From: Escherichia phage vB_EcoM_JNE01
Direction: 5' to 3' (one strand)
DNA: 64,000 bases
Sequence record: OR670491
The position numbers and the translations under genes are program-made. Position 1 is the stretch's first letter; every line of letters starts with the position of its first letter. Under the pieces are notes generated by a model. The model was given only the letters and a program-made list of their open reading frames with translations, was not told the origin of the DNA and ran no database searches. Below, piece after piece: positions 6,561 to 53,022 of the stretch.

Positions 6561-7021
6561 TTTATCTCGTATTACTTTTTTCACCTTTAATATTCTTTGT
6601 TGTGTACAATATTATTATTGACACACGAAACTTCAAGTACACAGTAATTATCTGTAAGAACGAGGGATGGTCTAACTTCCTTAGAGTTCTCTGGGAATCT
6701 TACTTCATTGATAAAAGATTCGTGAGGTGTCCTGAATTTGATAAGTGGGAGTATAGTAACGCTAAACTATCATCTATTGAGTACATACTTAGACATTACT
6801 TGAGTTCAACTAAAGGTGTTACATTCGAGAAAGCATACCCTTATGATAGGTCGTATGTAAAATATCGTTTGGAATATCAAGATAAACTTGTTAAACTAGA
6901 GATGTACCACAAGGGTGTGTTTTGCTATGTATTTGACTATCTGGTGATCCCACCTTACCATGCACGATTGATTGAAGCAGCAATTAAAAAGAATGATAAA
7001 AATATTCTTGACATACTTTAA
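6557..7021 (+). CDS. hypothetical protein
   Basis: 154-aa ORF, ATGA overlap. Confidence 0.45.
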   Translation: MIYLVLLFSPLIFFVVYNIIIDTRNFKYTVIICKNEGWSNFLRVLWESYFIDKRFVRCPEFDKWEYSNAKLSSIEYILRHYLSSTKGVTFEKAYPYDRSYVKYRLEYQDKLVKLEMYHKGVFCYVFDYLVIPPYHARLIEAAIKKNDKNILDIL

Positions 7022-7069
7022 ATAACCCAGTATACTAATCTCATAACGTAATCACTAGAGGATATAAAG

Positions 7070-7558
7070 ATGGACGTATTAGCTACCCAATTCAAACGTA
7101 ATGCAGAACTTCGTGAAGGTTACATGAGTATTAGTGAAGTTGTTGAGAACAATTTTAAACAATACATCTTTAACTCGGCTATCAAGATTAAGCCTACTAA
7201 AGAATCACCAGACCGTAGCTTTACCAAATGGATCGCTTACTGGGAAGAATCCCCGATTGCAATCGAGATGACTGTAATTACTACAGTACTGGAAACTGGT
7301 TACGTTAAGGCAACCATCGTTGATAAGAAAGTGCGTACCTTAGAAGAAGTGGGTGAGTATCCTGCACGTAACTCTAAAGTATTTGGCTATCTGGTTGATT
7401 CTAAGTTTAAACTAGAAAAAGATGTCCGTGCATATGTGATGGATAAAGTACAGCAACTTTCTGACACACAACAACAATCACCTGCACCTGTTTCAAAAAG
7501 CGAAGCTGTGGACCAAGCAGCGATTGAACAAATCAAAAAGGCATGGGGTCTGAAATAA
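7070..7558 (+). CDS. hypothetical protein
   Basis: 162-aa ORF, AGAGGA upstream. Confidence 0.5.
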   Translation: MDVLATQFKRNAELREGYMSISEVVENNFKQYIFNSAIKIKPTKESPDRSFTKWIAYWEESPIAIEMTVITTVLETGYVKATIVDKKVRTLEEVGEYPARNSKVFGYLVDSKFKLEKDVRAYVMDKVQQLSDTQQQSPAPVSKSEAVDQAAIEQIKKAWGLK

Positions 7559-7968
7559 TGTTCAGTTCACAAAACATTAAGTACATCTTCTTGTTTGGTA
7601 TTCTGTCATGGGTTATTCTTCCAGTACTAGATGTACTGGGAGTACCATCCGATAATAAAATTAATGAAATTTTCGGTTTATCATCTGCGTTTTTTGCTTT
7701 CGGTGTATTAGGTCTTGGTATATATATGGTTTTTGAGGGTTATGGTGATAAAGATGACCGACGCAGATTTTTCATGTTCATGTTTGGTAAGATGCATTAT
7801 AATTTCATCTTTACATTTAGTCTGATTCCGTGTATCATATATGCAGTGTGTTATGAATACTACGACTACGCAGGTTGGGGTCTTGAAGTGTTCTTGATTT
7901 TAGAATACATCAGGACTAAACAAAATGAATATGCATATTTGTATGCTATGATGAAAGTGAAGGAATGA
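7558..7968 (+). CDS. hypothetical membrane protein
   Basis: ATG overlapping the upstream stop; several hydrophobic segments. Confidence 0.45.
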   Translation: MFSSQNIKYIFLFGILSWVILPVLDVLGVPSDNKINEIFGLSSAFFAFGVLGLGIYMVFEGYGDKDDRRRFFMFMFGKMHYNFIFTFSLIPCIIYAVCYEYYDYAGWGLEVFLILEYIRTKQNEYAYLYAMMKVKE

Positions 7969-7972
7969 TAAA

Positions 7973-8416
7973 ATGTATTCAAAAAATAAAACATTGTTTA
8001 TTGTTTATATTATTATTATCATTGATGCAATTAGTAATTACCTCACACTCAATAACATTGAAACATTTATCAATCCGATATGGTTCTGTATAAATCTTGG
8101 AGCACTTGCAGTATTCTCAGCGATTGCATTACTGGGATTGATTGCAGTGTATCTGATTGGTTTGAACGAAAATGACAGAGTTGATTTTGTTAAGGAATAC
8201 GGAACGAAATCATTATCAAAATTCGTTTGGGTTCTTCCATTATGTTTGCTTATAGTGTATGATGTTCAAATGCATTTATATGAATCAGCCGTAATTTTAA
8301 CACCTATCATGCTTATATATAACGCTTTCGTTAATGAGCACAGGTTAGCCATTAAAGAACACTTCATACGAATGGCTAAGATGGGAACCACTCAATTGAA
8401 TGAACAAGAGGATTGA
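7973..8416 (+). CDS. hypothetical membrane protein
   Basis: 147-aa ORF with hydrophobic segments, AAGGAA upstream. Confidence 0.45.
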   Translation: MYSKNKTLFIVYIIIIIDAISNYLTLNNIETFINPIWFCINLGALAVFSAIALLGLIAVYLIGLNENDRVDFVKEYGTKSLSKFVWVLPLCLLIVYDVQMHLYESAVILTPIMLIYNAFVNEHRLAIKEHFIRMAKMGTTQLNEQED

Positions 8417-8420
8417 ACTA

Positions 8421-8672
8421 ATGAACGTTGAACGTGTCCAAGAATTAGCAGCAGCATTACAGGCGAACGAAAACCAATGTCAAGAACTGCGTGATACTAT
8501 TAAAGTCGAGTACGCACGCTTACAGGGTCTTCTCCAGGAATCTAACTGGGTAGTAACCAAAGGTATCGAAGCAATCTATAAAGATATTGAATCCCTTTTC
8601 AACAAGAAGTCTAAGTTTGAATCCGATTCTTACAACAAACGTAAAGAACTAAATTCAGTACTGGGTGTCTAA
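8421..8672 (+). CDS. hypothetical protein
   Basis: Internal ATG (frame +21) of track ORF 8400. Confidence 0.4.
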   Translation: MNVERVQELAAALQANENQCQELRDTIKVEYARLQGLLQESNWVVTKGIEAIYKDIESLFNKKSKFESDSYNKRKELNSVLGV

Positions 8673-8750
8673 AAAAAAAAGTACTTGACCAATTGAATAT
8701 CATGGAGTACATTGTGCTCCTACTTTAATGAAAAGCCAAAAGGAAATAAA

Positions 8751-9011
8751 ATGAAATCTATTCTCGTTGCAGTTAACCTGGTTGCTTCCCCATCTTTCAA
8801 CTTCAAAAAAGTTGTTGCTGACAATCTGAAGAACATCTGCCCTAATGCTGAATTGACTTTCTGTGTATTCGATTCCGAGAAACTAACAACTGTTGATCTA
8901 AACTATCTCTTGAACGATGTACAAAGTATTTCTGGTGAAAGTAACTTCAATGTAGTTCAGGAAGTTGCAGACGAGTATGATGATACTTTGGTTATTTCGG
9001 AGAATTTCTAA
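8751..9011 (+). CDS. hypothetical protein
   Basis: Internal ATG (frame +39) of track ORF 8712, AAAGGA upstream. Confidence 0.45.
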   Translation: MKSILVAVNLVASPSFNFKKVVADNLKNICPNAELTFCVFDSEKLTTVDLNYLLNDVQSISGESNFNVVQEVADEYDDTLVISENF

Positions 9012-9016
9012 ATCCA

Positions 9017-9436
9017 ATGCGAAGAATCATACAGTACTTAATCAGGAAATTATTTCGTTATGAAACGATAGAATATAAAGCTAATCTTGCATACCAAATT
9101 TACATAGCATTGTGTACTGGTGATTACGCTGTGTTGAATAAGTACTGTGCTTCTAAAGCAACTATTGATATAATGGCACTTCGTCTGTACGAGTGCCAGT
9201 TCTTTAGATACAATCATTATCAGTACAGATATGATGAAAAAGATTTCAATAGCATTGATATGCTAACGAAATTATGTAATAATAAAAAGAATATTCACAT
9301 ATCAGAATTCACCGCATTGTATTTTTATCTCAAGAGTTCATTATATATTAACTCTATGAAGAGATTCGATACTCGTGTTAATGCATTTGAAGGTAAAGAA
9401 TATGAGATATATGATAAATTTTTAGATAAGGTGTAA
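9017..9436 (+). CDS. hypothetical protein
   Basis: 139-aa ORF. Confidence 0.4.
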   Translation: MRRIIQYLIRKLFRYETIEYKANLAYQIYIALCTGDYAVLNKYCASKATIDIMALRLYECQFFRYNHYQYRYDEKDFNSIDMLTKLCNNKKNIHISEFTALYFYLKSSLYINSMKRFDTRVNAFEGKEYEIYDKFLDKV

Positions 9437-9437
9437 T

Positions 9438-9935
9438 ATGACTACTGTTTATATTGATAAGCGTTTAGGCGTATTAATGACTGATTCAAGGGTGACAAGT
9501 ACTCGCCCACGAATTTTTTTGGGTATCTTCCCATTAAAAGAAAAAAACCACTACGGTGTTGTTTCACAGAAAACCTTGTATGTTCATGACCGTCTCTTCA
9601 GTGCAGCAGGATCAGTTTCTGAAATTGACAAAGTACTGAATTATTTAATTACTGGTGAAAAGGTAATTCCTTCCAAAAAGCTATCGTGCCATTGTGTGTT
9701 GTTATCTAAGGACTATTGTATTCATTTTGTCCTAGTAGACGGTAAGTTCGTTAAGAAGTTAGTTTTTCTACACAAGGACTACACGTTTTTTATGGGTAGT
9801 GGTGGTGAATATATGATTGACGCAGCTTGTCATGAGGACTATAGTACTCTCCAAGCTAAAGTACTGGATACTTTTATGAAAGTAAAAAATCATGATTGTT
9901 TCAGTGATGATAATATTAATGTATATCGTTTTTGA
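9438..9935 (+). CDS. hypothetical protein
   Basis: 165-aa ORF. Confidence 0.45.
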   Translation: MTTVYIDKRLGVLMTDSRVTSTRPRIFLGIFPLKEKNHYGVVSQKTLYVHDRLFSAAGSVSEIDKVLNYLITGEKVIPSKKLSCHCVLLSKDYCIHFVLVDGKFVKKLVFLHKDYTFFMGSGGEYMIDAACHEDYSTLQAKVLDTFMKVKNHDCFSDDNINVYRF

Positions 9936-9957
9936 TTTTTTTCATTAGGAGCCGTAA

Positions 9958-10920
9958 TTGAAAAAGCTAGATCTAAATGCAATTGCTGATGAAGTACTGG
10001 ATGAATGTTTTGCTAGTGAAGAAGTCAACGTATTAGAGGCAATTGATGCCGTTGAAGAAGAACATGATGACCACAAGTTCGAGAAGCCTAACACTGGTAT
10101 CAGTTTGACTCGTCCTAAAGGTGTAACGAATGAAATGCTCATCCAGGAAGTACGTGATGGCATTAACGTTGAAAAGAACATTGATCTTCTGGTACGTTAC
10201 AACTACCCAATGATTGTTAGTACTGCTCGTAAATGTACATGTTTCATCCCATTTGAAGATAAGATTTCATATGGTGTTGAAGGTTTAATGCGAGCGATTC
10301 ATACATTCGATCCTACCAAGAACGTTAAGTTCATTACCTATGCAACAACAACAGTGTATATGACAATCTATAACGAAAGTGCAGACGCTAACTACCTAGT
10401 GCACTTCCCACGTTATATGAGTGTTAACAACATTTATGTGAAACGTTGTGTAGAAGCGTACCAAAAGAAATATGGTAGGTTCCCAACTCCAGAGATGGTC
10501 GCTGAAGAGACTGGTATTGAGATTCAACACGTTAAGAATTGTCTAACCTACACCAATACTTATATGGCATTGGATATGAAATTGAGTACTGATTCAGAAA
10601 GTACCTTGTCTGACATTGTTACTACAGTTGATCCTGATTACAACTTAGGTGCAGAAACTATCAGTATCCCACTGGTACAAAGTATTGCAGATATGATGCA
10701 TAATCTATCTGAAAAAGACCGTGAGTTGATTGAACGTGTACATGGTATTGGTTCAGCACAAGAACCAGAAACGCTACGAGAAATCATTGAGAGCGGTTTT
10801 GAAGATGAGAAGGGTAAAGTCATTACTGCTCGTTCTTCCTTGCACCGTAAGTACTCTGACGCAATGGAACGCCTACGTAAGATGGTGAAGTCCAGAGGTT
10901 ATGAGTTCGAAGATTTTTAA
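9958..10920 (+). CDS. phage-encoded sigma-70 family RNA polymerase sigma factor
   Basis: Region-2-like segment GVEGLMRAIHTFDPTKNVKFITYATTTVYMTI...HFPRYM and a C-terminal region-4-like helix-turn-helix (SEKDRELIERVHGIG...TARSSLHRKYSDAMERLRK); putative TTG start 6 nt after AGGAG, alternative ATG at 10135. Confidence 0.7.
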   Translation: MKKLDLNAIADEVLDECFASEEVNVLEAIDAVEEEHDDHKFEKPNTGISLTRPKGVTNEMLIQEVRDGINVEKNIDLLVRYNYPMIVSTARKCTCFIPFEDKISYGVEGLMRAIHTFDPTKNVKFITYATTTVYMTIYNESADANYLVHFPRYMSVNNIYVKRCVEAYQKKYGRFPTPEMVAEETGIEIQHVKNCLTYTNTYMALDMKLSTDSESTLSDIVTTVDPDYNLGAETISIPLVQSIADMMHNLSEKDRELIERVHGIGSAQEPETLREIIESGFEDEKGKVITARSSLHRKYSDAMERLRKMVKSRGYEFEDF

Positions 10921-10927
10921 GATTAAA

Positions 10928-10956
10928 GGGTTGACTTCGGTCAACCCTTTTTTTAT
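10928..10956 (+). terminator. rho-independent terminator with UUCG loop
   Basis: GGGTTGAC-TTCG-GTCAACCC followed by T7. Confidence 0.7.
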
Positions 10957-11582
10957 GGGACAAATTCGTAAATGGTGATACAATGATCTATGCACAACCA
11001 CAATGACAGTACTTGTACTGATAATCTTCCCTAATTCACTTGAAAACGTAAAGGATAGATGAGCTTTTCATTGTAGCGAACAGCAAAAGAAACCCGTTAG
11101 ATGTGGGCATAGTTTGAACCCCTCACGGCAATGCGGCTGTATAAAGAACCACGTTAGGATGGCTGGTGGTTCCTCGATAGACATATAAGGATAACACCTT
11201 ACGAATTATCTAAGGGAGAGTTATCAGATTTTGTACAATATAGTTGCGTCCAAAATTTGAGTACTCACATTAAGTATTTGATTGCATAGATACTTAATGA
11301 AGATACACTATGTTTAAAAGTGTAGACCGTCATATGAAACTGAAGTAGAGAGAAACAGGATGATCCGCTTTCGTGCTCTTTAAGAGTAATCTTCAATGCA
11401 ATAGCTCTGATACCATCAGCGTCAAATTCCCCTCTGTGTGGGGGGGGAAGAAAAATCCCTTTCTCAAATCCCGTCAATATTATAAAGTCCTTGACAGTTA
11501 TTATACATTCGCGTAAGATACGTAGTATCAGAAGCGAACAGACATCTCGAAGAGATGGATGATTAACATTAAGGAACATCTA

Positions 11583-11792
11583 ATGAATTCAACAATCTTC
11601 TTAGTAGCAGCTCTTTCAATGCAAAGCGGTGTACAAATCACTCCAATGAATTCCATGAATCAATGTATTTCTGTTCGTGATAGTACCTACGAACAGGTCA
11701 ATAAAAATATCTGGATGTCTATTGACAAAGAACAGATGTGGTGTTATAACAGTAATACAAAAGTTAAACTGTTTGTTGGTGAGAAAGAATAA
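11583..11792 (+). CDS. hypothetical small protein
   Basis: ATG 7 nt after AAGGA; internal start of track ORF 11559. Confidence 0.35.
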   Translation: MNSTIFLVAALSMQSGVQITPMNSMNQCISVRDSTYEQVNKNIWMSIDKEQMWCYNSNTKVKLFVGEKE

Positions 11793-11874
11793 TAGTTGAC
11801 ACGTAAGAAGTTCTAGAGTATAATTTCTACATTGAGTACTGAACTAAATCATTAATTAATCAAGAGGGTTTATC

Positions 11875-12060
11875 ATGCAAGTTATCGTTCTTATCGTTGG
11901 TATCGTACTGGGTGTTTATGGTCATTCCTGGATGCAGGAGAAGTTTCCTAATACTCGTCCAGACTTCTGTAGCACTACGGTGAGTTCTGAACTATCTAAA
12001 GATAGCAAAGATAGCATTGGTACTAAACTGGATAAAGTACTGAACGTAATTAACGAGTGA
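11875..12060 (+). CDS. hypothetical small membrane protein
   Basis: 61-aa ORF with hydrophobic N-terminus. Confidence 0.4.
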   Translation: MQVIVLIVGIVLGVYGHSWMQEKFPNTRPDFCSTTVSSELSKDSKDSIGTKLDKVLNVINE

Positions 12061-32818: not shown

Positions 32819-33592
32819 ATGACCCGTACAGAGAAAGCAATCCAAATCGAAAAGAACTTCAACAGCATGATGGCAGCTTTGGAATGTTTACTTGATACCC
32901 AAGCTAATTCAATCAATTCCCTGATTGTATCTGGTAAAGGTGGTGTTGGTAAAACTTACAACGTTGACCAGCGTTTACAGAAAGCTGATGATAACTTTGA
33001 AATCGACTACAAAAAGATCAGCGGTAAAGTAACCACTATGGGTTTGTACGAAGCACTGTATCGTTCACGTCATGCCGCTTCAGTACTGTTACTTGATGAC
33101 GTTGATATCTTCAGTGATGAAACTAACATTGACTTGCTCAAAGCAGTGTTGGACACGTCGGAGAAGCGGGTTGTATCTTATGCAACTTCTGGTAAGTACC
33201 TGGAGCAGCAGGGTATTCCTAAGCAGTTTGAATTCCGTGGGAAGGTAATCTTCCTGACGAACAAAAACCTGTCACAGATTGCTAAAGGTAAAAGCAGTTT
33301 AGCACCACACATTGATGCACTGATTACTCGTAGTATCTTTGTTGACCTACAACTGTTCACCAACGAAGAAGTCATGATTCACATTGAGAACATCATGAAC
33401 AAGACTAACATTCTTGAGAACAATGGTGTTAATAAAAATGGTTGTAAAGCAATCCTGAACTGGATGCTGAACAACGAAGAAAACCTGCGTTCACCTTCAC
33501 TGCGTATGCCGTGCCTGATTGCTGGTTTGTACAACAAATTCCCGTATGATTGGGAATCAATGGCAGAAAACATGTTCCTGGAAAAGAACTAA
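32819..33592 (+). CDS. P-loop NTPase
   Basis: Walker A SGKGGVGKT and Walker B-like VLLLDDVD. Confidence 0.55.
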   Translation: MTRTEKAIQIEKNFNSMMAALECLLDTQANSINSLIVSGKGGVGKTYNVDQRLQKADDNFEIDYKKISGKVTTMGLYEALYRSRHAASVLLLDDVDIFSDETNIDLLKAVLDTSEKRVVSYATSGKYLEQQGIPKQFEFRGKVIFLTNKNLSQIAKGKSSLAPHIDALITRSIFVDLQLFTNEEVMIHIENIMNKTNILENNGVNKNGCKAILNWMLNNEENLRSPSLRMPCLIAGLYNKFPYDWESMAENMFLEKN

Positions 33593-37696: not shown

Positions 37697-38902
37697 TTAT
37701 ATACCACGACTGGGTATTTGATATAATTGGAATTTAGTGTAGTAATCAGAAACTGTTGTCCCGGCTGCTTGTGGGATATAGCCACTCAAATACACATCCC
37801 CTTGATTATCCATATACACTGTTGTACATTCACTTGAACAGAATAACTCGGTGTTAGATACTTTAGGAGCATCAACTGGTGTTACAAATGTAGTACTTGA
37901 TGTTGTATTACCGCGACCGAGCTTACCATACGTGTTTATACCACACATATAAAGTGAATCGGCAGTTTTAACCGTAAGCCCACCATATGTTAATGAATTT
38001 GATTTCATTTCCATATCATCTGATATTGGTAGAGTGGAGATAGTGGATAATACTGTCCAAGAATTAGCGGATGAACCATTACCCAAGTTACCATCGGACT
38101 GAATCCCACTTGCACGAACTGTATATGTATTATTCGTGTTGTGTTTATATACAACCCATGATGCACTCCCACCGAGTTCATAATGTATAACAGTATTGTT
38201 GGCGAATGCACCCATTTGTGTCCATACTCTAATGTTAGTTGCATTATTACTTATACCAAGCGAACCCCATGTGTTTTGACCAGTGACCCAAAGTGTTTTA
38301 TCAATTTTCTGCACAATCACTGCACTTGAACCTGTTTTAACACTATCAACATTCGTATTAATTGACGTAAAAGTTGATAATCTAGTGGTTGTGTTATTAC
38401 CAAAATATCCCTGTGTATTCGTCCCCATTCCATATAGCGTACCATTTTCAAGTAAAACAAAAATACCCTCACCTACAAGTTGAATGTCCTTAATTTGGGA
38501 CAATTGTGTAGCATTGAATACTGATGTAAAATATGAAGTACAATCAGTATAAGTACTGGCAGTACTTAAACCTGCACCAATAGCTTTACCAACCCCACTG
38601 TAATAAAATTTATTATCTTCAGTTTGGATTAAATTAAAAGTACCTTGGGCTGTTCTGAAACGTTTTACATTTTGGTATATTAAAGTCCATTCTTTTACTT
38701 TCGCATTATGTACACCATTCCCGAATCCATAGTTTTGTGAAGTAGTTCCACCTATACCCATTAAGTCTCCATTTTTATATAATAGTAAGAGTGCTGTTGC
38801 TGGAATTACTGACGCACTATAACCATTGTACATAAAGATTTCTTTCACTTCAGGAACTTTCATTTTATTAGCGTATTTAACCATTCTTGCAAAAGGTAAC
38901 AT
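37697..38902 (-). CDS. RCC1-like beta-propeller repeat protein, paralog 1
   Basis: 401 aa; N-terminus MLPFARMVKYANK; Gly/Asn/Thr/Ser-rich repeats typical of RCC1-like blades. Confidence 0.6.
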   Translation of the reverse strand: MLPFARMVKYANKMKVPEVKEIFMYNGYSASVIPATALLLLYKNGDLMGIGGTTSQNYGFGNGVHNAKVKEWTLIYQNVKRFRTAQGTFNLIQTEDNKFYYSGVGKAIGAGLSTASTYTDCTSYFTSVFNATQLSQIKDIQLVGEGIFVLLENGTLYGMGTNTQGYFGNNTTTRLSTFTSINTNVDSVKTGSSAVIVQKIDKTLWVTGQNTWGSLGISNNATNIRVWTQMGAFANNTVIHYELGGSASWVVYKHNTNNTYTVRASGIQSDGNLGNGSSANSWTVLSTISTLPISDDMEMKSNSLTYGGLTVKTADSLYMCGINTYGKLGRGNTTSSTTFVTPVDAPKVSNTELFCSSECTTVYMDNQGDVYLSGYIPQAAGTTVSDYYTKFQLYQIPSRGI

Positions 38903-49312: not shown

Positions 49313-49518
49313 CTCAAGAACAAATTATGCAGTACTACCTATGTGCTATATCAAAAGAACATCTGAATAGCATAGGGCATCAACAAATTATACTTGCAAA
49401 TGCGAAACGTTCGGCACTTCTGCTTAACTCCATCAGAAATAACCTCATAAGGAATTTTCTGGAAGGTAACGAATCTATGCAGTACTATTTCATCTTAACA
49501 CTACTAATCGAGTACTAA
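49309..49518 (+). CDS. small-ORF array member 2
   Basis: 69 aa; N-terminal ...QYY, C-terminal ...YYFILTLLIEY. Confidence 0.45.
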   Translation: MTQEQIMQYYLCAISKEHLNSIGHQQIILANAKRSALLLNSIRNNLIRNFLEGNESMQYYFILTLLIEY

Positions 49519-49722
49519 ATGAATAAAGAACAATTATTTCAGTACTATAAAAGTACTCTGTCCAAAGGTCTACAGGAAAGTATAGCAGTTGAGTCTGCAA
49601 TACTACAGAACCTTAATGCAGTAGAATTCACAAACAGAATCACCAGGCACGCACAAAATGCTTTACAAGGACATGAAACCTTGAGATACTATCACATCAT
49701 CGTGCTTTGTATGGAGGTATAA
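49519..49722 (+). CDS. small-ORF array member 3
   Basis: 67 aa; ...FQYYKSTLSK ... YYHIIVLCMEV. Confidence 0.45.
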   Translation: MNKEQLFQYYKSTLSKGLQESIAVESAILQNLNAVEFTNRITRHAQNALQGHETLRYYHIIVLCMEV

Positions 49723-49730
49723 CAGAACAA

Positions 49731-49922
49731 ATGAATCCAGAACATCTAGAGTACTACAAGACATTCATGAACCACAAGGATCAGTACAGTTACAATACTG
49801 CTATGGGGCATTTTCGATACCATACCAAAAAAATGCAAAAGCACACACTAACACTATGGACTGTACAAGCACAACGAGACGAACTAAGATTGTGTGCTAT
49901 AATTAAAATCCTGAACATCTAA
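49731..49922 (+). CDS. small-ORF array member 4
   Basis: Internal ATG of track ORF 49707; MNPEHLEYYKT... Confidence 0.4.
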   Translation: MNPEHLEYYKTFMNHKDQYSYNTAMGHFRYHTKKMQKHTLTLWTVQAQRDELRLCAIIKILNI

Positions 49923-49930
49923 GGAATACT

Positions 49931-50122
49931 ATGTACGAGCACAAAGAACAGTACTTAAACACTCTACCTAAAGATATACAAAGAGCATTCCCTTGTGCTC
50001 CGTGGGATTTAAACAGTAAATGGGGTTTTATTGAGTTCTATAACGATGTATGTATTGTACTGGAAAGTAAGTCCCTCTCAATGCAGTACTGTTCAATCTT
50101 GAACCTAATTTTTAAGTACTAA
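49931..50122 (+). CDS. small-ORF array member 5
   Basis: MYEHKEQYLNTLP ... LNLIFKY. Confidence 0.45.
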   Translation: MYEHKEQYLNTLPKDIQRAFPCAPWDLNSKWGFIEFYNDVCIVLESKSLSMQYCSILNLIFKY

Positions 50123-50126
50123 AACT

Positions 50127-50306
50127 ATGCAAACATTCTATACAGATAGACTAAGCCTTAGAGATACTTTTATGTACGAAACCTTTGTTAAGTACTATAA
50201 CTTAGGTACTCCAATTACAAAGAATATTAATCTACAGCACTGCACACACTCAGCAGTACATGACCACGATCCGTACAGATACATCTTAGCCCTTTTAAGT
50301 ATATAA
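50127..50306 (+). CDS. small-ORF array member 6
   Basis: 59 aa (not in track): MQTFYTDRLS ... YRYILALLSI. Confidence 0.35.
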   Translation: MQTFYTDRLSLRDTFMYETFVKYYNLGTPITKNINLQHCTHSAVHDHDPYRYILALLSI

Positions 50307-50315
50307 GGAACACTA

Positions 50316-50990
50316 ATGAAACTCAATAATTACAGTAAACAATACCTAAAGCATTTTAAGTACCTCAAAAGCATTAAGGCTGAATCTATCACCAGCAGCT
50401 ACGTTTACAGCCCTAATGTACTAAAACAATTAAAGTACAAGAAAGAAAAAGTATCAAAGAACCTCAAAAAGTTTCTTAAGCACAAAGACGCAAAGATTCA
50501 GTACTTGAACATTAAAAACGATCATCCAGTACTAAGCCTCAATACAAGTCTAAAGAATCTGGATAACTCTTCATTTATGCTTGAGTTCAATATAAATGAA
50601 AATACTCCAGCGGTTTTTACAATTGCGTATAATAAAGCACAAATCTTTTTAGGTGCAAAAACCGCACTTAAACTCAGTAAAGCACAATTCTGTTTAGGTG
50701 ACCAGTACTACGTAGGTAGTGTACATATTGAACTCGAAAAAGATATGTACTTCGGTAGTACCCACGATAATCCAGAACATAAAGATACTATTGACTTCTT
50801 CAGGAATCTCCCTAAAGAGTATTCAGAAGATGAAATGTTCCAGTGGAGTACTATTATTAAAGACCCACATCTTTGCTACGAAGTGTATAAGAAAGTACAA
50901 GGGATTAAACAAATGATTAAAGAAAATAAAAAAATGTACCAACTCTTGCAGTTCTTAACCGGAGAAAATCTAATTGTTCAAAGACCATAA
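50316..50990 (+). CDS. hypothetical protein inserted in the small-ORF array
   Basis: 224-aa ORF with repeated KxxYLK-like segments. Confidence 0.45.
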   Translation: MKLNNYSKQYLKHFKYLKSIKAESITSSYVYSPNVLKQLKYKKEKVSKNLKKFLKHKDAKIQYLNIKNDHPVLSLNTSLKNLDNSSFMLEFNINENTPAVFTIAYNKAQIFLGAKTALKLSKAQFCLGDQYYVGSVHIELEKDMYFGSTHDNPEHKDTIDFFRNLPKEYSEDEMFQWSTIIKDPHLCYEVYKKVQGIKQMIKENKKMYQLLQFLTGENLIVQRP

Positions 50991-51168
50991 AGAGTACTAC
51001 AGAAATCAACTCCCAAAGGAATGGCAAATAACATTAGAAACTAACCTAGCACAGATATATACCCAGAAGTTTCTTGCTATGACATGGGAGCACTGCATTG
51101 AGTCAGTACTGAATTCTTCAAATGAATCACAATATCTCAATACTCTTTTACTTGTATATAAATTCTAA
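50974..51168 (+). CDS. small-ORF array member 7
   Basis: (M)FKDHKEYYRNQLP ... LLLVYKF; apparent TTG start overlapping the upstream gene. Confidence 0.35.
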   Translation: MFKDHKEYYRNQLPKEWQITLETNLAQIYTQKFLAMTWEHCIESVLNSSNESQYLNTLLLVYKF

Positions 51169-51181
51169 AAAGGAATAACAA

Positions 51182-51388
51182 ATGCAATTCCATGAACATA
51201 TGGAGTACTACAGAAAACAACTACCAGAACCTTTATCGATGATAATCGGTTCCAGAAGTTTAATAAGTAATCCCAATTTTCATATGCGTAGTCACTATAA
51301 ATGTACTGCTTCAATTTGTAATGGAACTGCTCACAATGAACCGCACCAGCATCTATACCAAATCCTTAAACTAATATATCAGTACTAA
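51182..51388 (+). CDS. small-ORF array member 8
   Basis: MQFHEHMEYYRKQLP ... LKLIYQY. Confidence 0.45.
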   Translation: MQFHEHMEYYRKQLPEPLSMIIGSRSLISNPNFHMRSHYKCTASICNGTAHNEPHQHLYQILKLIYQY

Positions 51389-51391
51389 ATT

Positions 51392-51583
51392 ATGCACGAA
51401 TATAAAGAGTACTACAAAGATAAAATCCCAAAGTTTCTACAATACCAAATACCAGATGCTGCACTAGGAATAAATGATGTGCACACCTGTACAAGATTCT
51501 ATCAATGCACTGAAAGTTTTCTGGTAGATGATTATGACCAATGCAAGGTGTACTATGTTATTTCACTAATATATAGGTACTAA
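51392..51583 (+). CDS. small-ORF array member 9
   Basis: MHEYKEYYKDKIP ... ISLIYRY. Confidence 0.45.
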   Translation: MHEYKEYYKDKIPKFLQYQIPDAALGINDVHTCTRFYQCTESFLVDDYDQCKVYYVISLIYRY

Positions 51584-51586
51584 ATC

Positions 51587-51766
51587 ATGCACAACGATTT
51601 CTATATACAAAAACTTATCGACGCTGGCCTGGAAAGCTTCCCGATAAATCCTGTACAAACAAAAGGATTGCACTGGTACTTCATCCCCTGTACTAAAGCA
51701 TGTATAAACCCCAGCAATTACAAGGATCTATACCACAATATATTAATACTCGCATTGAGGTACTAA
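51587..51766 (+). CDS. small-ORF array member 10
   Basis: 59 aa (not in track): MHNDFYIQKL ... ILILALRY. Confidence 0.35.
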   Translation: MHNDFYIQKLIDAGLESFPINPVQTKGLHWYFIPCTKACINPSNYKDLYHNILILALRY

Positions 51767-51769
51767 ATT

Positions 51770-51952
51770 ATGCAAGAACACTTGGAGTACTACAGAAGCC
51801 ATCTCCCAAAGAAGGCACAAAGAAACTTCGACCAACAATATATAAACCAAAAGAATCAGTTCTATAATGCATTCTATTCGTCTATGAAAACTATTGCTAT
51901 ACAAGGCAAAGACCCGTACTATAGCATCCTGAACATCATCTTCAAGTACTAA
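51770..51952 (+). CDS. small-ORF array member 11
   Basis: MQEHLEYYRSHLP ... LNIIFKY. Confidence 0.45.
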   Translation: MQEHLEYYRSHLPKKAQRNFDQQYINQKNQFYNAFYSSMKTIAIQGKDPYYSILNIIFKY

Positions 51953-51955
51953 AGC

Positions 51956-52141
51956 ATGTACAGAGACTTCTATATAAGTAAACTTAATCCTGTACTACAA
52001 ACTCGTATTCCTCCAGCGAAATTTATCCTCAAAACAAAAGCACAAAGGTATGAGTTCAAAAAGTGTACAAAAGAAATACTCAGTACTAAAAGTAATAAGA
52101 ACATATACTATCAAGTACTCGTCCTTATATTCAAGTACTAA
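51956..52141 (+). CDS. small-ORF array member 12
   Basis: MYRDFYISKLNP ... VLVLIFKY. Confidence 0.45.
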   Translation: MYRDFYISKLNPVLQTRIPPAKFILKTKAQRYEFKKCTKEILSTKSNKNIYYQVLVLIFKY

Positions 52142-52161
52142 AGTACTAAAGGAATAAACAT

Positions 52162-52356
52162 ATGCAACACCAGCACAAATTGTACTACACGCAATTTCTT
52201 AATCAGCAACTACAACAATTTATACCTAATGAACCATTACCATATGATCATCCCCTGGGTGCACGCGTTTTCAAAAGAACTATTAATGAACTATTGAGTA
52301 CTACCGACGACGATTCCCTGTACTACTGCTTAATTAAACTTATATATAGGCACTAA
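52162..52356 (+). CDS. small-ORF array member 13
   Basis: MQHQHKLYYTQFL ... LIKLIYRH. Confidence 0.45.
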   Translation: MQHQHKLYYTQFLNQQLQQFIPNEPLPYDHPLGARVFKRTINELLSTTDDDSLYYCLIKLIYRH

Positions 52357-52357
52357 T

Positions 52358-52552
52358 ATGCAACTCCTGCACAGAGAATACTACACACAATTCCTTAAAG
52401 AGAACTACAGAGATTCAGTCCCCGTAACTCCTTTTGACCCAAATAACCCAAGTTCAATCTTCCTCTTTAACGACGCAACACGTACTGCACTCTGTACTAC
52501 CAATAAACATTGGCACTACGCATTTGTACTTATACTTATATACAGACACTAA
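52358..52552 (+). CDS. small-ORF array member 14
   Basis: MQLLHREYYTQFL ... LILIYRH. Confidence 0.45.
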   Translation: MQLLHREYYTQFLKENYRDSVPVTPFDPNNPSSIFLFNDATRTALCTTNKHWHYAFVLILIYRH

Positions 52553-52561
52553 GGCACTAAC

Positions 52562-52747
52562 ATGAATGAGCACAGAGAGTACTACATAAAGAGACTTCAC
52601 CCCGACCTACGAGATACTATACCATTCGTTCCACATAATATACATGAACCCGTAGTGCAGTACTACTTTAATATAACAGTACAAGCCGCATTAAGTGAAT
52701 ATAGACTTGAGTACTTCACTGTACTAAAACTTATATATAAGTACTAA
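52562..52747 (+). CDS. small-ORF array member 15
   Basis: MNEHREYYIKRLHP ... LKLIYKY. Confidence 0.45.
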   Translation: MNEHREYYIKRLHPDLRDTIPFVPHNIHEPVVQYYFNITVQAALSEYRLEYFTVLKLIYKY

Positions 52748-52812
52748 CCCCTTGACATATACTCCAAGAATGATATACTACTTTCTATATAGAAACAATA
52801 CAGAGATAACAT

Positions 52813-53022
52813 ATGCACGAACATAAAGATTTCTATGTAAGCCAACTCCCCGTAATAGACCAATTCTGGTTAGCTGATGCAGCACCGTGTAATACAGATA
52901 CTAAGTACGGACAATTGTGCTTTGTTGAATCTATAAAGAAAGTACTACAACAAGATAAAACTAAGTACCGTAAAGAAAAAGACTTGTACTTTAATATAGT
53001 AGAACTTACCTTTATGTTCTAG
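52813..53022 (+). CDS. small-ORF array member 16
   Basis: MHEHKDFYVSQLP ... VELTFMF. Confidence 0.45.
   Translation: MHEHKDFYVSQLPVIDQFWLADAAPCNTDTKYGQLCFVESIKKVLQQDKTKYRKEKDLYFNIVELTFMF

What the first reader, a model, noticed from the sequence alone, without database searches (positions are those of the whole stretch)
9958..10920. Phage-encoded sigma-70 family factor with regions 2 and 4
The ORF carries a region-2-like block (GVEGLMRAIHTFDPTKNVKFITYATTTVYMTI...HFPRYM) and a C-terminal region-4-like helix-turn-helix. A full-length alternative sigma factor implies its own promoter class, possibly the poorly matched promoters upstream of the RCC1-like genes.
Basis: partly seen in the sequence, partly recalled or inferred. 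Interest (0 to 1): 0.55.

Follow-up and report, generated by a model that had tools for sequence, protein, structure and literature searches.

The report
Jumbo-phage sigma factor, already annotated

Summary
The ORF at 9958-10920 (+), 320 aa, is real. Its TTG start lies 6 nt after AGGAG and a strong terminator follows the stop. It is a sigma-70-family protein: Pfam regions 2 and 3 pass their thresholds and PHROG_351 scores 6e-47. Region 4 gives no sequence-profile hit. Structure models show a sigma-4 fold whose helix-turn-helix turn carries 7 extra residues.

The window comes from a Rak2/PBECO4-like jumbo coliphage (98.6% to phage Turkey5). The protein is 100% identical to a deposited one, and orthologues are annotated and published as sigma factors, so the finding is already known.

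New detail:
- Core-binding and A-11-type residues are kept.
- The Trp dyad, the -12 readers, the extended -10 readers and most -35 readers are replaced, and the replacements are conserved across the clade.

Across the whole genome I find three promoter classes:
- TTGACA/TATAAT, in the early arms, which include this gene.
- nATAAATA, before structural genes and the RCC1-like genes. The phage also has a gp55-like late sigma.
- (G/T)RRACR-N16-TGnTATAAT, before replication genes and the late-sigma gene.

The third class is the best candidate target, but this is inferred. The proposed link to the RCC1-like genes is not supported.

Aside: a conserved structured RNA of about 470 nt, absent from Rfam, lies just downstream.

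The parts
9958..10920 (+). Sigma-70-family factor CDS (320 aa, TTG start, TAA stop)
   Evidence: ORF list. Pfam r2 and r3. PHROG_351 6e-47. PDB sigma factors down to 1e-17 for the single sequence and 6e-28 for the profile. 100% identical to a vB_EcoM_JNE01 protein. Annotated as a sigma factor in Turkey5.
9947..9951 (+). Shine-Dalgarno AGGAG, 6 nt before the TTG start
   Evidence: Sequence read directly.
9958..10122 (+). N-terminal acidic segment, aa 1-55. It is clade-conserved (MKKLDLNxIxDEVLDECF), has low model confidence and is not a recognisable region 1.1.
   Evidence: Alignment invariants. pLDDT 29-40. No Pfam hit.
10123..10188 (+). Region 1.2-like remnant, aa 56-77
   Evidence: Aligns with the end of RpoS region 1.2 in MAFFT. 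Helices H58-66 and H71-92.
10189..10377 (+). Region 2, aa 78-140. D101, F125, T127 and Y128 are kept. The Trp dyad is TT, and sigma70 T440 and R441 are Y138 and N139.
   Evidence: Pfam Sigma70_r2, 36.8 bits. Residue map.
10438..10626 (+). Region 3, aa 161-223. The region 3.0 residues H455 and E458 correspond to Y153 and V156, just upstream of this envelope.
   Evidence: Pfam Sigma70_r3, 45.6 bits. Residue map.
10651..10893 (+). Region 4 fold, aa 232-312: four helices H232-248, H252-262, H273-278 and H292-312
   Evidence: AF2 models. In Foldseek against the PDB, all 50 top hits of the domain model are sigma region 4. No Pfam r4 hit.
10792..10830 (+). Expanded HTH turn, aa 279-291 (ESGFEDEKGKVIT). 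It is 7 residues longer than in sigma70 and sigmaS, and 9 longer in the 37-40%-identity subclade. G280, D283 and G286 are invariant.
   Evidence: Alignments. Loop with a beta bridge in both models.
10925..10957 (+). Intrinsic terminator of the sigma operon: an 11-bp stem AAAGGGTTGAC/GTCAACCCTTT, a TTCG loop and a T run
   Evidence: Terminator scan and sequence.
7008..7036 (+). Likely operon promoter, host sigma70 type (TTGACA-17-TATACT, 11/12), ahead of the tightly packed genes 7070-10920
   Evidence: Promoter scan and gene map. Assignment to the sigma gene is inferred.
9817..9845 (+). Possible internal sigma70-type promoter (TTGACG-17-TATAGT, 10/12), 113 nt before the start codon
   Evidence: Promoter scan. 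A consensus match only.
10957..10984 (+). Member of the candidate cognate promoter class: GGGACA-N16-TACAAT with GTGA abutting the -10, directly after the sigma terminator and in front of the non-coding RNA
   Evidence: The class is defined genome-wide.

Best explanation
The gene encodes a sigma-70-family factor with a region 1.2 remnant, region 2, region 3 with its linker, and region 4. The phage is a Rak2/PBECO4-like jumbo coliphage with no RNA polymerase gene annotated in its genome.

Shown:
- The protein has the sigma2, sigma3 and sigma4 folds and keeps core-binding and -10-flipping residues (D101, the YGxEG motif, F125, T127, Y128).
- It has clade-conserved replacements at nearly every sigma70 position that reads duplex promoter DNA.
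- It is the last gene of a block of tightly packed genes that starts at a near-consensus host-type promoter and ends in a strong terminator. The block lies in a genome arm dense with TTGACA/TATAAT promoters.

Inferred:
- Host sigma70 holoenzyme transcribes the gene early.
- The protein then binds host core RNA polymerase and directs it to phage promoters of different specificity.

The best candidate targets are the roughly 22-28 sites of the form (G/T)RRACR-N16-TGnTATAAT(g). They lie in front of replication and nucleotide-metabolism genes, the gp55-like late-sigma gene and four non-coding RNA copies. That would give a cascade of host sigma70, then this sigma, then the gp55-like sigma, similar to SPO1. 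The late sigma, not this one, would serve the RCC1-like genes.

How sure I am of each step:
- Sigma-family identity: about 0.95.
- Acts as a real sigma on host core: about 0.8.
- Reads this particular promoter class: about 0.35-0.4.
For: Identity:
- Pfam r2 and r3 pass their gathering cutoffs.
- PHROG_351 'RNA polymerase sigma factor' scores 6e-47.
- The best NCBIfam hits are RpoD_Cterm and RpoS.
- The best PDB sequence hits are all sigma factors.
- The top 50 Foldseek hits are all sigma-A, sigma-70 or sigma-S chains or models, with E. coli sigmaS first.
- All 50 top hits of the C-terminal domain model are region 4 domains.

Conservation: 26 full-length homologues at 37-100% identity, with invariant R292, H296, R297 and Y299 on the putative recognition helix.

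Residue map:
- Kept: D403, F427, T429, Y430, R584, L598, R599.
- Replaced: W433/W434 to T/S/A, T440 to Y, R441 to N, H455 to Y, E458 to V, E585 to S/T, R586 to S, R588 to H, Q589 to R.

Early context: 28 strict sigma70-type promoters in the window, nearly all 20-50 nt before start codons. Genome-wide they concentrate at 0-20 and 290-350 kb.

No phage polymerase: the only CDS annotated 'RNA polymerase' in Turkey5 is the gp55-like late sigma. The literature places group 2 jumbo phages as lacking an RNAP but encoding sigmas (PMC7824862).

Candidate promoter class:
- It is separated from the TTGACA class by location (Fisher p = 8.7e-6) and by TT at -35 positions 1-2 (p = 8e-6).
- The spacer is fixed at 16 nt, with ACA present in 17/28 sites against 4/216 controls.
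- The full motif has 19 intergenic and 9 coding hits, while intergenic DNA is 14.5% of the genome.
- The same architecture (TGAAACG...TGnTATAAT) recurs in distant relatives: contigs whose lengths match CBB, GAP32, Yersinia fHe-Yen9 and Serratia BF.
- It matches the 'divergent RpoD-like promoters' reported before DNA-synthesis genes and the gp55-like sigma gene in CBB (PMC5259590).

From my own knowledge of sigma70 genetics: R584 reads the -31 C and R588 the -33 G. Keeping R584 while changing R588, Q589 and E585 fits a -35 element that keeps ...AC. and loses TTG.
Against: - There is no experimental evidence, here or in the papers I found, that this protein binds core or initiates transcription at any promoter.
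- The candidate class has an almost perfect extended -10 (GTGATATAAT). Host sigma70 can use such promoters without a -35 element.
- The phage sigma lacks the sigma70 residues that read the TG motif (H455 and E458 are Y and V). That is awkward if it reads these sites.
- The Trp dyad used by group 1/2 sigmas to open the -10 element is absent.
- Region 4 is invisible to sequence profiles, and its HTH turn is expanded, so DNA binding by region 4 is not assured.
- The coupling between a purine at -35 position 2 and the extended -10 is only moderate (OR 3.2, p = 0.011).
- The class shades into the TTGACA class: 3 of the 28 sites have a perfect TTGACA.
Confidence: 0.5

Rival explanations
1. Host sigma70 reads all TATAAT-type phage promoters, including the (G/T)RRACR-N16-TGnTATAAT class, through the extended -10. 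A phage activator may bind the purine-rich upstream box, as MotA does in T4 with AsiA. The phage sigma would then have another role, for example competing with host sigmas for core to shut off host transcription, or serving a few promoters that motif searches cannot see.
For: The class carries a near-perfect extended -10, and the host sigma has the TG-reading residues that the phage sigma lacks. PA5oct, a related phage, depends on host RNAP, and only TTGAC and TATAATA motifs were reported around its TSSs (PMC7318152). A dyad-enrichment search found no other -35/-10-type pair.
Against: No CDS in the Turkey5 record is annotated as MotA or AsiA (annotation-level evidence only). The putative recognition-helix residues of the phage sigma are invariant over 37-100% identity, which argues that they contact something specific. 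The upstream box is conserved across phages of at least five host genera that all carry this sigma.
Confidence: 0.25
2. The phage sigma is a functional replacement for sigma70 with essentially the same specificity (TTGACA/TATAAT). It would keep phage early-type promoters active after host sigma70 is inactivated or outcompeted, so there is no separate promoter class.
For: About 70 near-consensus sigma70-type promoters are spread over the genome, including the mid-genome. The closest families by score are RpoD and RpoS.
Against: Most residues that give sigma70 its -35, -12 and extended -10 specificity are replaced. The scores are far below every RpoD and RpoS equivalog cutoff (92 against 354, and 85 against 379). 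No Pfam region 4 hit.
Confidence: 0.12
3. One reading: this sigma drives the promoters upstream of the RCC1-like gene array.
For: Those promoters lack a TTGACA -35 and carry a good TATAAT, so a sigma that needs no canonical -35 could in principle use them.
Against: Their conserved motif nTAAATA(T/A)A is shared with the tail-tube gene, two giant structural-module genes and the gene after the major capsid protein. It also resembles the nATAAATA class found 35-55 nt before structural genes, which is the T4-late type. The genome encodes a dedicated gp55-like late sigma (phrog_12791, 1e-150). None of the RCC1 cassettes has the RRAC box or the TGn extended -10.
Confidence: 0.07

Closest known systems
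Orthologous sigma factors of Rak2-like / Asteriusvirus jumbo phages (Turkey5 XMR02002.1, phAPEC6, PBECO4, fEgEco12 Gp519, UE-S1, RaK2, CBB_513)
   Same: Same gene. Identity is 98.8% to Turkey5, 87% to fEgEco12 and Ecwhy_1, 57% to PBECO4 and phAPEC6, 39% to RaK2 and K64-1, and 32-34% to CBB and Serratia BF. The early-region context is the same as described for CBB_513 (PMC5259590). The gene is annotated as a sigma factor in many records and mentioned in at least five papers.
   Different: Nothing essential. The 100%-identical JNE01 protein is named 'hypothetical protein' by its NCBI source. I found no experimental study of any of these proteins.
E. coli RpoS (sigmaS) and other group 2 sigma factors
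   Same: Best structural match (5ipl_F, E = 6e-11). Similar length (320 against 330 aa). Same order of regions 1.2, 2, 3 and 4, with no region 1.1 and no non-conserved insert. The isolated C-terminus hits RpoS region 4 structures first.
   Different: The score of 84.8 bits is far below the RpoS equivalog cutoff of 378.7. The Trp dyad, T440, R441, H455, E458, E585, R586, R588 and Q589 equivalents are all replaced. There are 7 extra residues in the region 4.2 HTH turn. Turkey5's label 'RpoS' is a name by similarity and does not show membership.
Bacillus phage SPO1 gp28 (middle sigma) and the sigmaA, gp28, gp33/34 cascade
   Same: A phage-encoded sigma-70-family protein made early from host-sigma promoters that redirects host core to the next temporal class (my own knowledge; the SPO1 context is also in PMC13401047). 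The cascade logic is the same as the one proposed here.
   Different: No sequence comparison was made here. The host is Gram-positive. In the present phage the last step would use a T4 gp55-like minimal sigma, not a second sigma-70-like pair.
T4 gp55 late sigma (and its homologue in this phage, Turkey5 187400-188239)
   Same: Both are phage-encoded specificity factors for host core RNA polymerase.
   Different: A different family. The gp55-like protein matches phrog_12791 and phrog_234, and weakly phrog_19643 (E = 5e-4), with no Pfam sigma-70 region hit at E <= 0.01. The present protein matches phrog_351 and has regions 2, 3 and 4. The two coexist in the same genome.
phiEco32 gp36 (ECF-like phage sigma)
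   Same: A coliphage-encoded sigma-70-family protein that gives E. coli core a phage-specific promoter class (my own knowledge; cited as Pavlova et al. 2012 in PMC7318152).
   Different: gp36 is a two-domain (regions 2 and 4) ECF-type protein. The present protein has region 3 and is closest to groups 1 and 2. Not compared by sequence here.

Membership tests
Sigma-70 family | Region 2 (core binding and -10 recognition) matches the family profile above threshold | tested here: met
   Pfam PF04542, aa 78-140, 36.8 bits against a gathering score of 24.
Sigma-70 family | Region 3 matches the family profile above threshold (present in groups 1-3) | tested here: met
   Pfam PF04539, aa 161-223, 45.6 bits against 25.3.
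Sigma-70 family | Region 4 (-35-binding HTH) matches the family profile above threshold | tested here: not met
   No PF04545 hit at E<=1 on the whole protein or at E<=10 on the isolated C-terminus. After deleting the 8-residue insert it scores 13.2 bits against a cutoff of 24.1. None of the 26 homologues has a precomputed r4 hit.
Sigma-70 family | Region 4 fold (four helices with a C-terminal HTH) is present | tested here: met
   Tested on a predicted structure only. The domain model has pLDDT 82.6 and pTM 0.69. All 50 best PDB matches are sigma region 4, with target-normalised TM of 0.5-0.76 (mostly 0.6 or above) and rmsd 2.3-3.4 A against isolated sigma-4 domains. The HTH turn is 7 residues longer than the canonical one.
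Sigma-70 family | Binds core RNA polymerase and confers promoter-specific initiation | not testable with these tools
   Needs biochemistry. Only conservation of the D403 equivalent and the YGxEG motif is seen.
Group 1/2 sigma factors (RpoD/RpoS type) | Scores above the curated RpoD or RpoS equivalog cutoffs | tested here: not met
   RpoD_Cterm 92.2 bits against 354, and rpoS_proteo 84.8 against 378.7.
Group 1/2 sigma factors (RpoD/RpoS type) | Conserved region 2.3-2.4 Trp dyad (W433/W434) and -12 readers (Q437, T440), plus region 3.0 TG readers (H455, E458) | tested here: not met
   W433 to T/S, W434 to T/S/A, Q437 to M in this subclade, T440 to Y (invariant), H455 to Y (invariant), E458 to V (aligned against K-12 rpoD and rpoS).
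Group 4 (ECF) sigma factors | Only regions 2 and 4, with no region 3 | tested here: not met
   Region 3 is present above threshold.
T4 gp55-like late sigma | Matches the late-sigma PHROG families | tested here: not met
   Only phrog_351 is hit. The late-sigma families phrog_12791 and phrog_234 are hit by a different protein of the same genome.

The most novel reading that the evidence does not exclude
This protein would define a jumbo-phage-specific subgroup of sigma-70 factors. Its region 4 has an HTH turn expanded by 7-9 residues and an invariant R-S-S-x-H-R-x-Y recognition helix, and it would read a purine-rich -35 box, (T)G-R-R-A-C-R, instead of TTGACA. It would control a middle regulon made of the replication genes, the gp55-like late-sigma gene and a four-copy family of large structured RNAs not in Rfam, one of which lies directly downstream of the sigma gene. 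That would be a three-sigma cascade in a phage of Gram-negative bacteria.
Probability: 0.3. Interest if true: 0.55.

Novelty: already known. Interest (0 to 1): 0.27.

Why it matters
As a gene call it adds nothing. The same protein is in GenBank, and its orthologues are annotated and mentioned in several genome papers.

What could matter is the transcription programme of Rak2/Asteriusvirus-type jumbo phages, for which I found no experimental study. These phages lack their own RNA polymerase and carry two sigma factors. The residue map and the three promoter classes described here turn 'it has a sigma factor' into a specific hypothesis that can be tested cheaply: which sigma reads which class, and in what order.

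The neighbouring conserved RNA family is probably the more novel object in this stretch of the window.

Tried and rejected
- **Pfam Sigma70_r4** on the whole protein and on the isolated C-terminus: no hit. I therefore tested region 4 by structure instead.
- **RpoS identity** (the Turkey5 product name): rejected, because the score is far below the equivalog cutoff and key residues differ.
- **Literal search for the CBB motif** TGAAAC...TATA: 5 scattered hits in the window, 4 of them inside coding sequence, and no intergenic hits genome-wide. This first suggested the class was absent. Here the box is TG(G/A)(G/A)AC(A), and I found it only after anchoring on GTGnTAyAAT.
- **4-mer dyad enrichment** on unexplained intergenic regions: it recovered only AGTACT hairpins, although the positive control TGAC/TATA worked.
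- **Information content upstream of -35-less TATAAT sites**: flat.
- **AGTACT as a promoter element**: rejected, because 855 of its 1001 copies are in coding sequence.
- **Rfam on the window**, at gathering thresholds and permissively on the gap and on seven loci that hold divergent copies: only terminator look-alikes and hits outside the element. tRNA scan of the window: none.
- **Homology of the RNA to the four PA5oct ncRNAs**: the blastn 'distant' search listed no Pseudomonas phage among the genera it reports. I did not test this further.
- **Not tried**: a search for MotA or AsiA homologues (I used only the Turkey5 annotation), the 1.84-billion-protein representative search, and a covariance-model search for the RNA.
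Full report

The mechanical start is a TTG. It sits 6 nt downstream of AGGAG. Homologues begin with the same MKKLDL, and the nearly identical phage Turkey5 annotates the same start. An 11-bp GC-rich hairpin with a T run follows the stop codon directly (10925-10957).

It gives no Sigma70_r4. PHROG_351 'RNA polymerase sigma factor' matches at 6e-47. The best NCBIfam models are RpoD_Cterm (92 bits) and RpoS (85 bits), both far below their cutoffs of 354 and 379. All significant PDB sequence matches are sigma factors. So the sigma-family call and region 2 are confirmed, region 3 was overlooked, and region 4 fails at sequence level.

**2. Region 4**

The C-terminal 90 residues are well conserved across the clade. 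H262, G263, G280, D283, G286, R292, H296, R297 and Y299 are invariant. The clade profile aligns to sigma-A and RpoS through region 4.1 and the first helix of the HTH, then loses register. On its own, the C-terminal profile hits isolated RpoS region 4 structures first, but only at E = 0.014.

Removing eight residues (FEDEKGKV) in silico lets Pfam r4 align over its full length, at only 13.2 bits. AlphaFold models of the whole protein and of aa 225-320 alone (pLDDT 82.6, pTM 0.69) agree on four helices: 232-248, 252-262, 273-278 and 292-312. A 13-residue loop with a beta bridge sits where the HTH turn should be. Foldseek with the domain model returns only sigma region 4 domains among the 50 best PDB hits, including isolated sigma-4 crystal structures (target-normalised TM of 0.5-0.76, mostly 0.6 or above; rmsd 2.3-3.4 A). 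With the full-length model, the top 50 are all sigma-A, sigma-70 or sigma-S chains or models, with E. coli sigmaS first.

I conclude that region 4 is present as a fold. Its HTH turn is 7 residues longer than in sigma70 and sigmaS, and 9 longer in the subclade at 37-40% identity. This rests on predicted structures.

**3. What genome is this, and is the gene known?**

The window is 98.6% identical over the 3-kb stretch tested (window 9000-12000) to Escherichia phage Turkey5 (351 kb), where this CDS is annotated 'RNA polymerase sigma factor RpoS'. The protein is 100% identical to one in phage vB_EcoM_JNE01. Orthologues occur at several levels of identity:

| Identity | Phages |
|---|---|
| 87% | fEgEco12, Ecwhy_1 |
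| 57% | PBECO4, phAPEC6, G17 |
| 39% | RaK2, K64-1 |
| 32-34% | CBB, Serratia BF, Yersinia fHe-Yen9 |

The gene is mentioned as a phage-encoded sigma factor for phAPEC6 (PMC7247149), fEgEco12 (PMC13070987), UE-S1 (PMC12805682) and CBB (PMC5259590, which lists regions 2, 3 and 4 from InterPro). A comparative study states that all 'group 2' jumbo phages lack an RNA polymerase but encode sigma factors of two kinds, a minimal one and an RpoD-like one (PMC7824862). I found no experimental work on this protein. As a discovery, the finding is therefore already known.

**4. Residue-level anatomy**

I aligned the clade with authentic K-12 sigma70 and sigmaS. The functional roles given below come from my own knowledge of the sigma70 literature.

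- **Kept:** D403 (D101) and the surrounding YGxEG; F427, T429 and Y430 (F125, T127, Y128; the -10 non-template strand contacts); R584 (R292); L598 and R599.
- **Replaced, and conserved in the replaced state:**
  - W433/W434 to T/S/A (the Trp dyad that wedges open the -12/-11 step).
  - Q437 to M in this subclade, T440 to Y, R441 to N (-12/-13 readers).
  - H455 to Y and E458 to V (readers of the extended -10 TG).
  - F563 to H.
  - E585 to S/T, R586 to S, R588 to H and Q589 to R (-35 readers).

The first 55 residues are acidic, clade-conserved and of low model confidence. They are not a recognisable region 1.1. A short region 1.2-like helix precedes region 2. The protein is thus closest to group 2 sigmas in architecture but fails several of their defining features. 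Its duplex-DNA-reading surface has been rebuilt.

**5. Context**

The gene is the last of a tightly packed + strand block (7070-10920). A TTGACA-17-TATACT site at 7008-7036 precedes the block and the terminator closes it. The window holds 28 strict sigma70-type promoters, almost all intergenic and 20-50 nt before a start codon. Genome-wide they concentrate at 0-20 kb and 290-350 kb of Turkey5. This matches the 'early region' described for CBB. Early expression by host sigma70 holoenzyme is an inference from this layout.

**6. Promoter classes, genome-wide**

I assembled the Turkey5 genome from eight fetched stretches and surveyed the regions upstream of genes.

- **Class E:** TTGACA-N16/17-TATAAT, as described above.
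- **Class L:** nATAAATA.
  - ATAAATA is the most enriched intergenic 7-mer (22 observed, 1.2 expected).
  - It lies 35-55 nt before the tail sheath, major capsid, baseplate and portal-region genes.
  - It resembles the T4 late promoter TATAAATA and the CBB 'late' motif.
  - The genome encodes a gp55-like late sigma at 187400-188239 (phrog_12791 1e-150, phrog_234 1e-16), next to gp46/47-like nuclease genes.
- **Class X:** (G/T)RRACR-N16-TAyAAT, with TGn (mostly GTGA) abutting the -10 and usually a G after it.
  - I found it only after anchoring on GTGnTAyAAT.
  - Of 28 such intergenic sites, 25 lie in the mid-genome, against 17 of 46 class E sites (Fisher p = 8.7e-6).
  - TT at -35 positions 1-2 occurs in 10/28 sites, against 40/46 for class E (p = 8e-6).
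  - ACA at a fixed 16-nt spacing occurs in 17/28 sites, against 4/216 other sites.
  - A purine at -35 position 2 is coupled to the extended -10 (OR 3.2, p = 0.011) and to mid-genome location (p = 0.008).
  - The full motif has 19 intergenic and 9 coding occurrences, while intergenic DNA is 14.5% of the genome.
  - Downstream genes include ClpP, the gene before DNA polymerase, the sliding clamp, SSB (three tandem sites), primase, topoisomerase, a cytosine methyltransferase, the gp55-like sigma gene and all four copies of a non-coding RNA.
  - The same architecture, with the literal box TGAAAC(G/A), lies upstream of the RNA copies on contigs whose lengths match CBB, GAP32, Yersinia fHe-Yen9 and Serratia BF, and on metagenomic contigs.
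  - It is evidently the 'divergent RpoD-like promoter' with -35 TGAAACG that the CBB paper reports before DNA-synthesis genes and before its gp55-like sigma gene.

**7. Which sigma reads what?**

Nothing here shows it directly.

*For assigning class X to this sigma:*
- The class is conserved across phages that all carry the sigma.
- It differs from the host consensus at the TTG positions of the -35 element, while keeping the AC. That pattern fits a recognition helix that keeps R584 and changes R588, Q589 and E585.
- It sits before middle-type genes and the late-sigma gene, which would give a tidy cascade.

*Against:*
- The class has an excellent extended -10 that host sigma70 could use unaided.
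- The phage sigma lacks the residues that read TG.
- The class shades into class E.

I put this assignment at about 0.35-0.4. The main rival is that host sigma70 reads these promoters, perhaps with a phage activator, at about 0.25.

**8. The RCC1 idea**

The RCC1-like genes are real. Pfam RCC1 and RCC1-like domain hits support them, nine paralogues lie at 37697-48965 on the minus strand, and eleven are known in phAPEC6. Seven of the nine carry a conserved upstream cassette: a hairpin GCCAGTACT...AGTACTGGC, a T run, nTAAATAnAnTATAAT, then the Shine-Dalgarno sequence.

The motif nTAAATA(T/A)A also precedes the tail-tube gene, two giant structural-module genes and the gene after the major capsid protein. 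These promoters therefore belong with the late class, and the gp55-like sigma is their natural reader. They have neither the RRAC box nor the TGn.

**9. Verdict**

This is a real sigma-70-family factor that is already annotated and published in this phage clade, so interest and novelty are low for the finding as stated. The analysis adds three things:
- A correction: regions 2 and 3 are detected by sequence, and region 4 by fold only, with an expanded HTH turn.
- A residue map that predicts altered specificity.
- A concrete, testable three-class promoter scheme.

**10. Things noticed next to the finding**

The 660-nt gene-free stretch after the sigma gene holds a conserved element of about 470 nt.
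- It has four paralogues per genome.
- It is present in 61 jumbo-phage records at 1-5 copies each, typically 4.
- The sigma-adjacent copy is 93% identical to that of PBECO4, although the sigma proteins are only 57% identical.
- A 24-sequence alignment supports 57 base pairs in 13 helices, and 29 of the pairs have compensatory changes. 98.4% of cells are paired, against 81.2% in shuffles and 36-48% when partners are slid. There are 218 double-change cells against 59 in shuffles (0 of 500 shuffles reach the observed value).
- There is no Rfam match, and a strict two-block pattern finds no copy in 185,579 bacterial and archaeal species genomes.
- Each Turkey5 copy has a class X promoter.

This looks like an undescribed large structured RNA family. 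Its transcription, its ends and its function are untested.

Separately, the palindrome AGTACT occurs 1001 times in the genome against about 119 expected from base composition.

Noticed in passing
window 11025-11490 (+), inside the gene-free gap 10921-11582: A conserved non-coding element of about 470 nt. It has four paralogous copies per genome (Turkey5 ~54.0, 108.8, 192.1 and 304.9 kb), each in its own gene-free gap and each behind a (G/T)RRACR-N16-TGnTAyAAT promoter. It occurs in 61 jumbo-phage records, and the sigma-adjacent copy is 93% identical to PBECO4's although the flanking sigma protein is only 57% identical. A 24-sequence alignment gives 57 pairs in 13 helices, 29 with compensatory changes; 98.4% of cells are paired against 81% in shuffles and 36-48% in slid controls. 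There is no Rfam match, and a strict pattern finds no copy in 185,579 bacterial and archaeal genomes. It is probably an undescribed large structured RNA family, and it deserves its own investigation.
   Followed up: yes
whole window (243 copies) and the whole Turkey5 genome: The palindrome AGTACT (often CAGTACTG) occurs 1001 times in 351 kb, against about 119 expected from base composition. 855 copies are inside coding sequence. It also appears in promoter spacers (TTGACAGTACTG, CAGTACTGTATAAT) and in the stems of the RCC1-gene terminators. The cause is unknown; candidates are a binding or modification site, or a packaging or compaction signal.
   Followed up: partly
window 18015, 22070, 23985, 30149, 31040, 32761 (+), and 10925-10957: Fused terminator-promoter cassettes: the hairpin GGGCTGAC-TTCG-GTCAGCCC plus a T run, followed by TATAAT, so that the TTGACT of the hairpin serves as the -35 of the next promoter. 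The sigma gene's own terminator is of the same type, but it is followed by a degenerate hexamer (TATGGG) and then by a class X promoter.
   Followed up: partly
window 37697-48965 (-): An array of nine RCC1-like paralogues. Seven carry a nearly identical upstream cassette of terminator hairpin, T run, nTAAATAnAnTATAAT and GAATAAAGGAGG. The motif groups with the late (structural-gene) promoter class.
   Followed up: partly
Turkey5 187400-188239 (outside the window; L008:37400-38239): A second sigma in the same genome, gp55-like and late (phrog_12791 1e-150, phrog_234 1e-16), annotated only as 'RNA polymerase'. It lies next to gp46/47-like nuclease genes as in T4 and has a class X promoter (GGAACA-N16-TATAAT with GTGC) just upstream.
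   Followed up: partly
window 32819-33592 (+): The CDS that Turkey5 calls 'transcriptional regulator FleQ' matches only phrog_1250 (unknown function) and a sub-threshold AAA_16 stretch. The regulator name is not supported by these scans.
   Followed up: partly
window 49067-53022 (+): A run of about 17 very short ORFs (59-81 aa, apart from one of 224 aa) packed end to end. They may be a paralogous small-protein family. I did not examine them.
   Followed up: no
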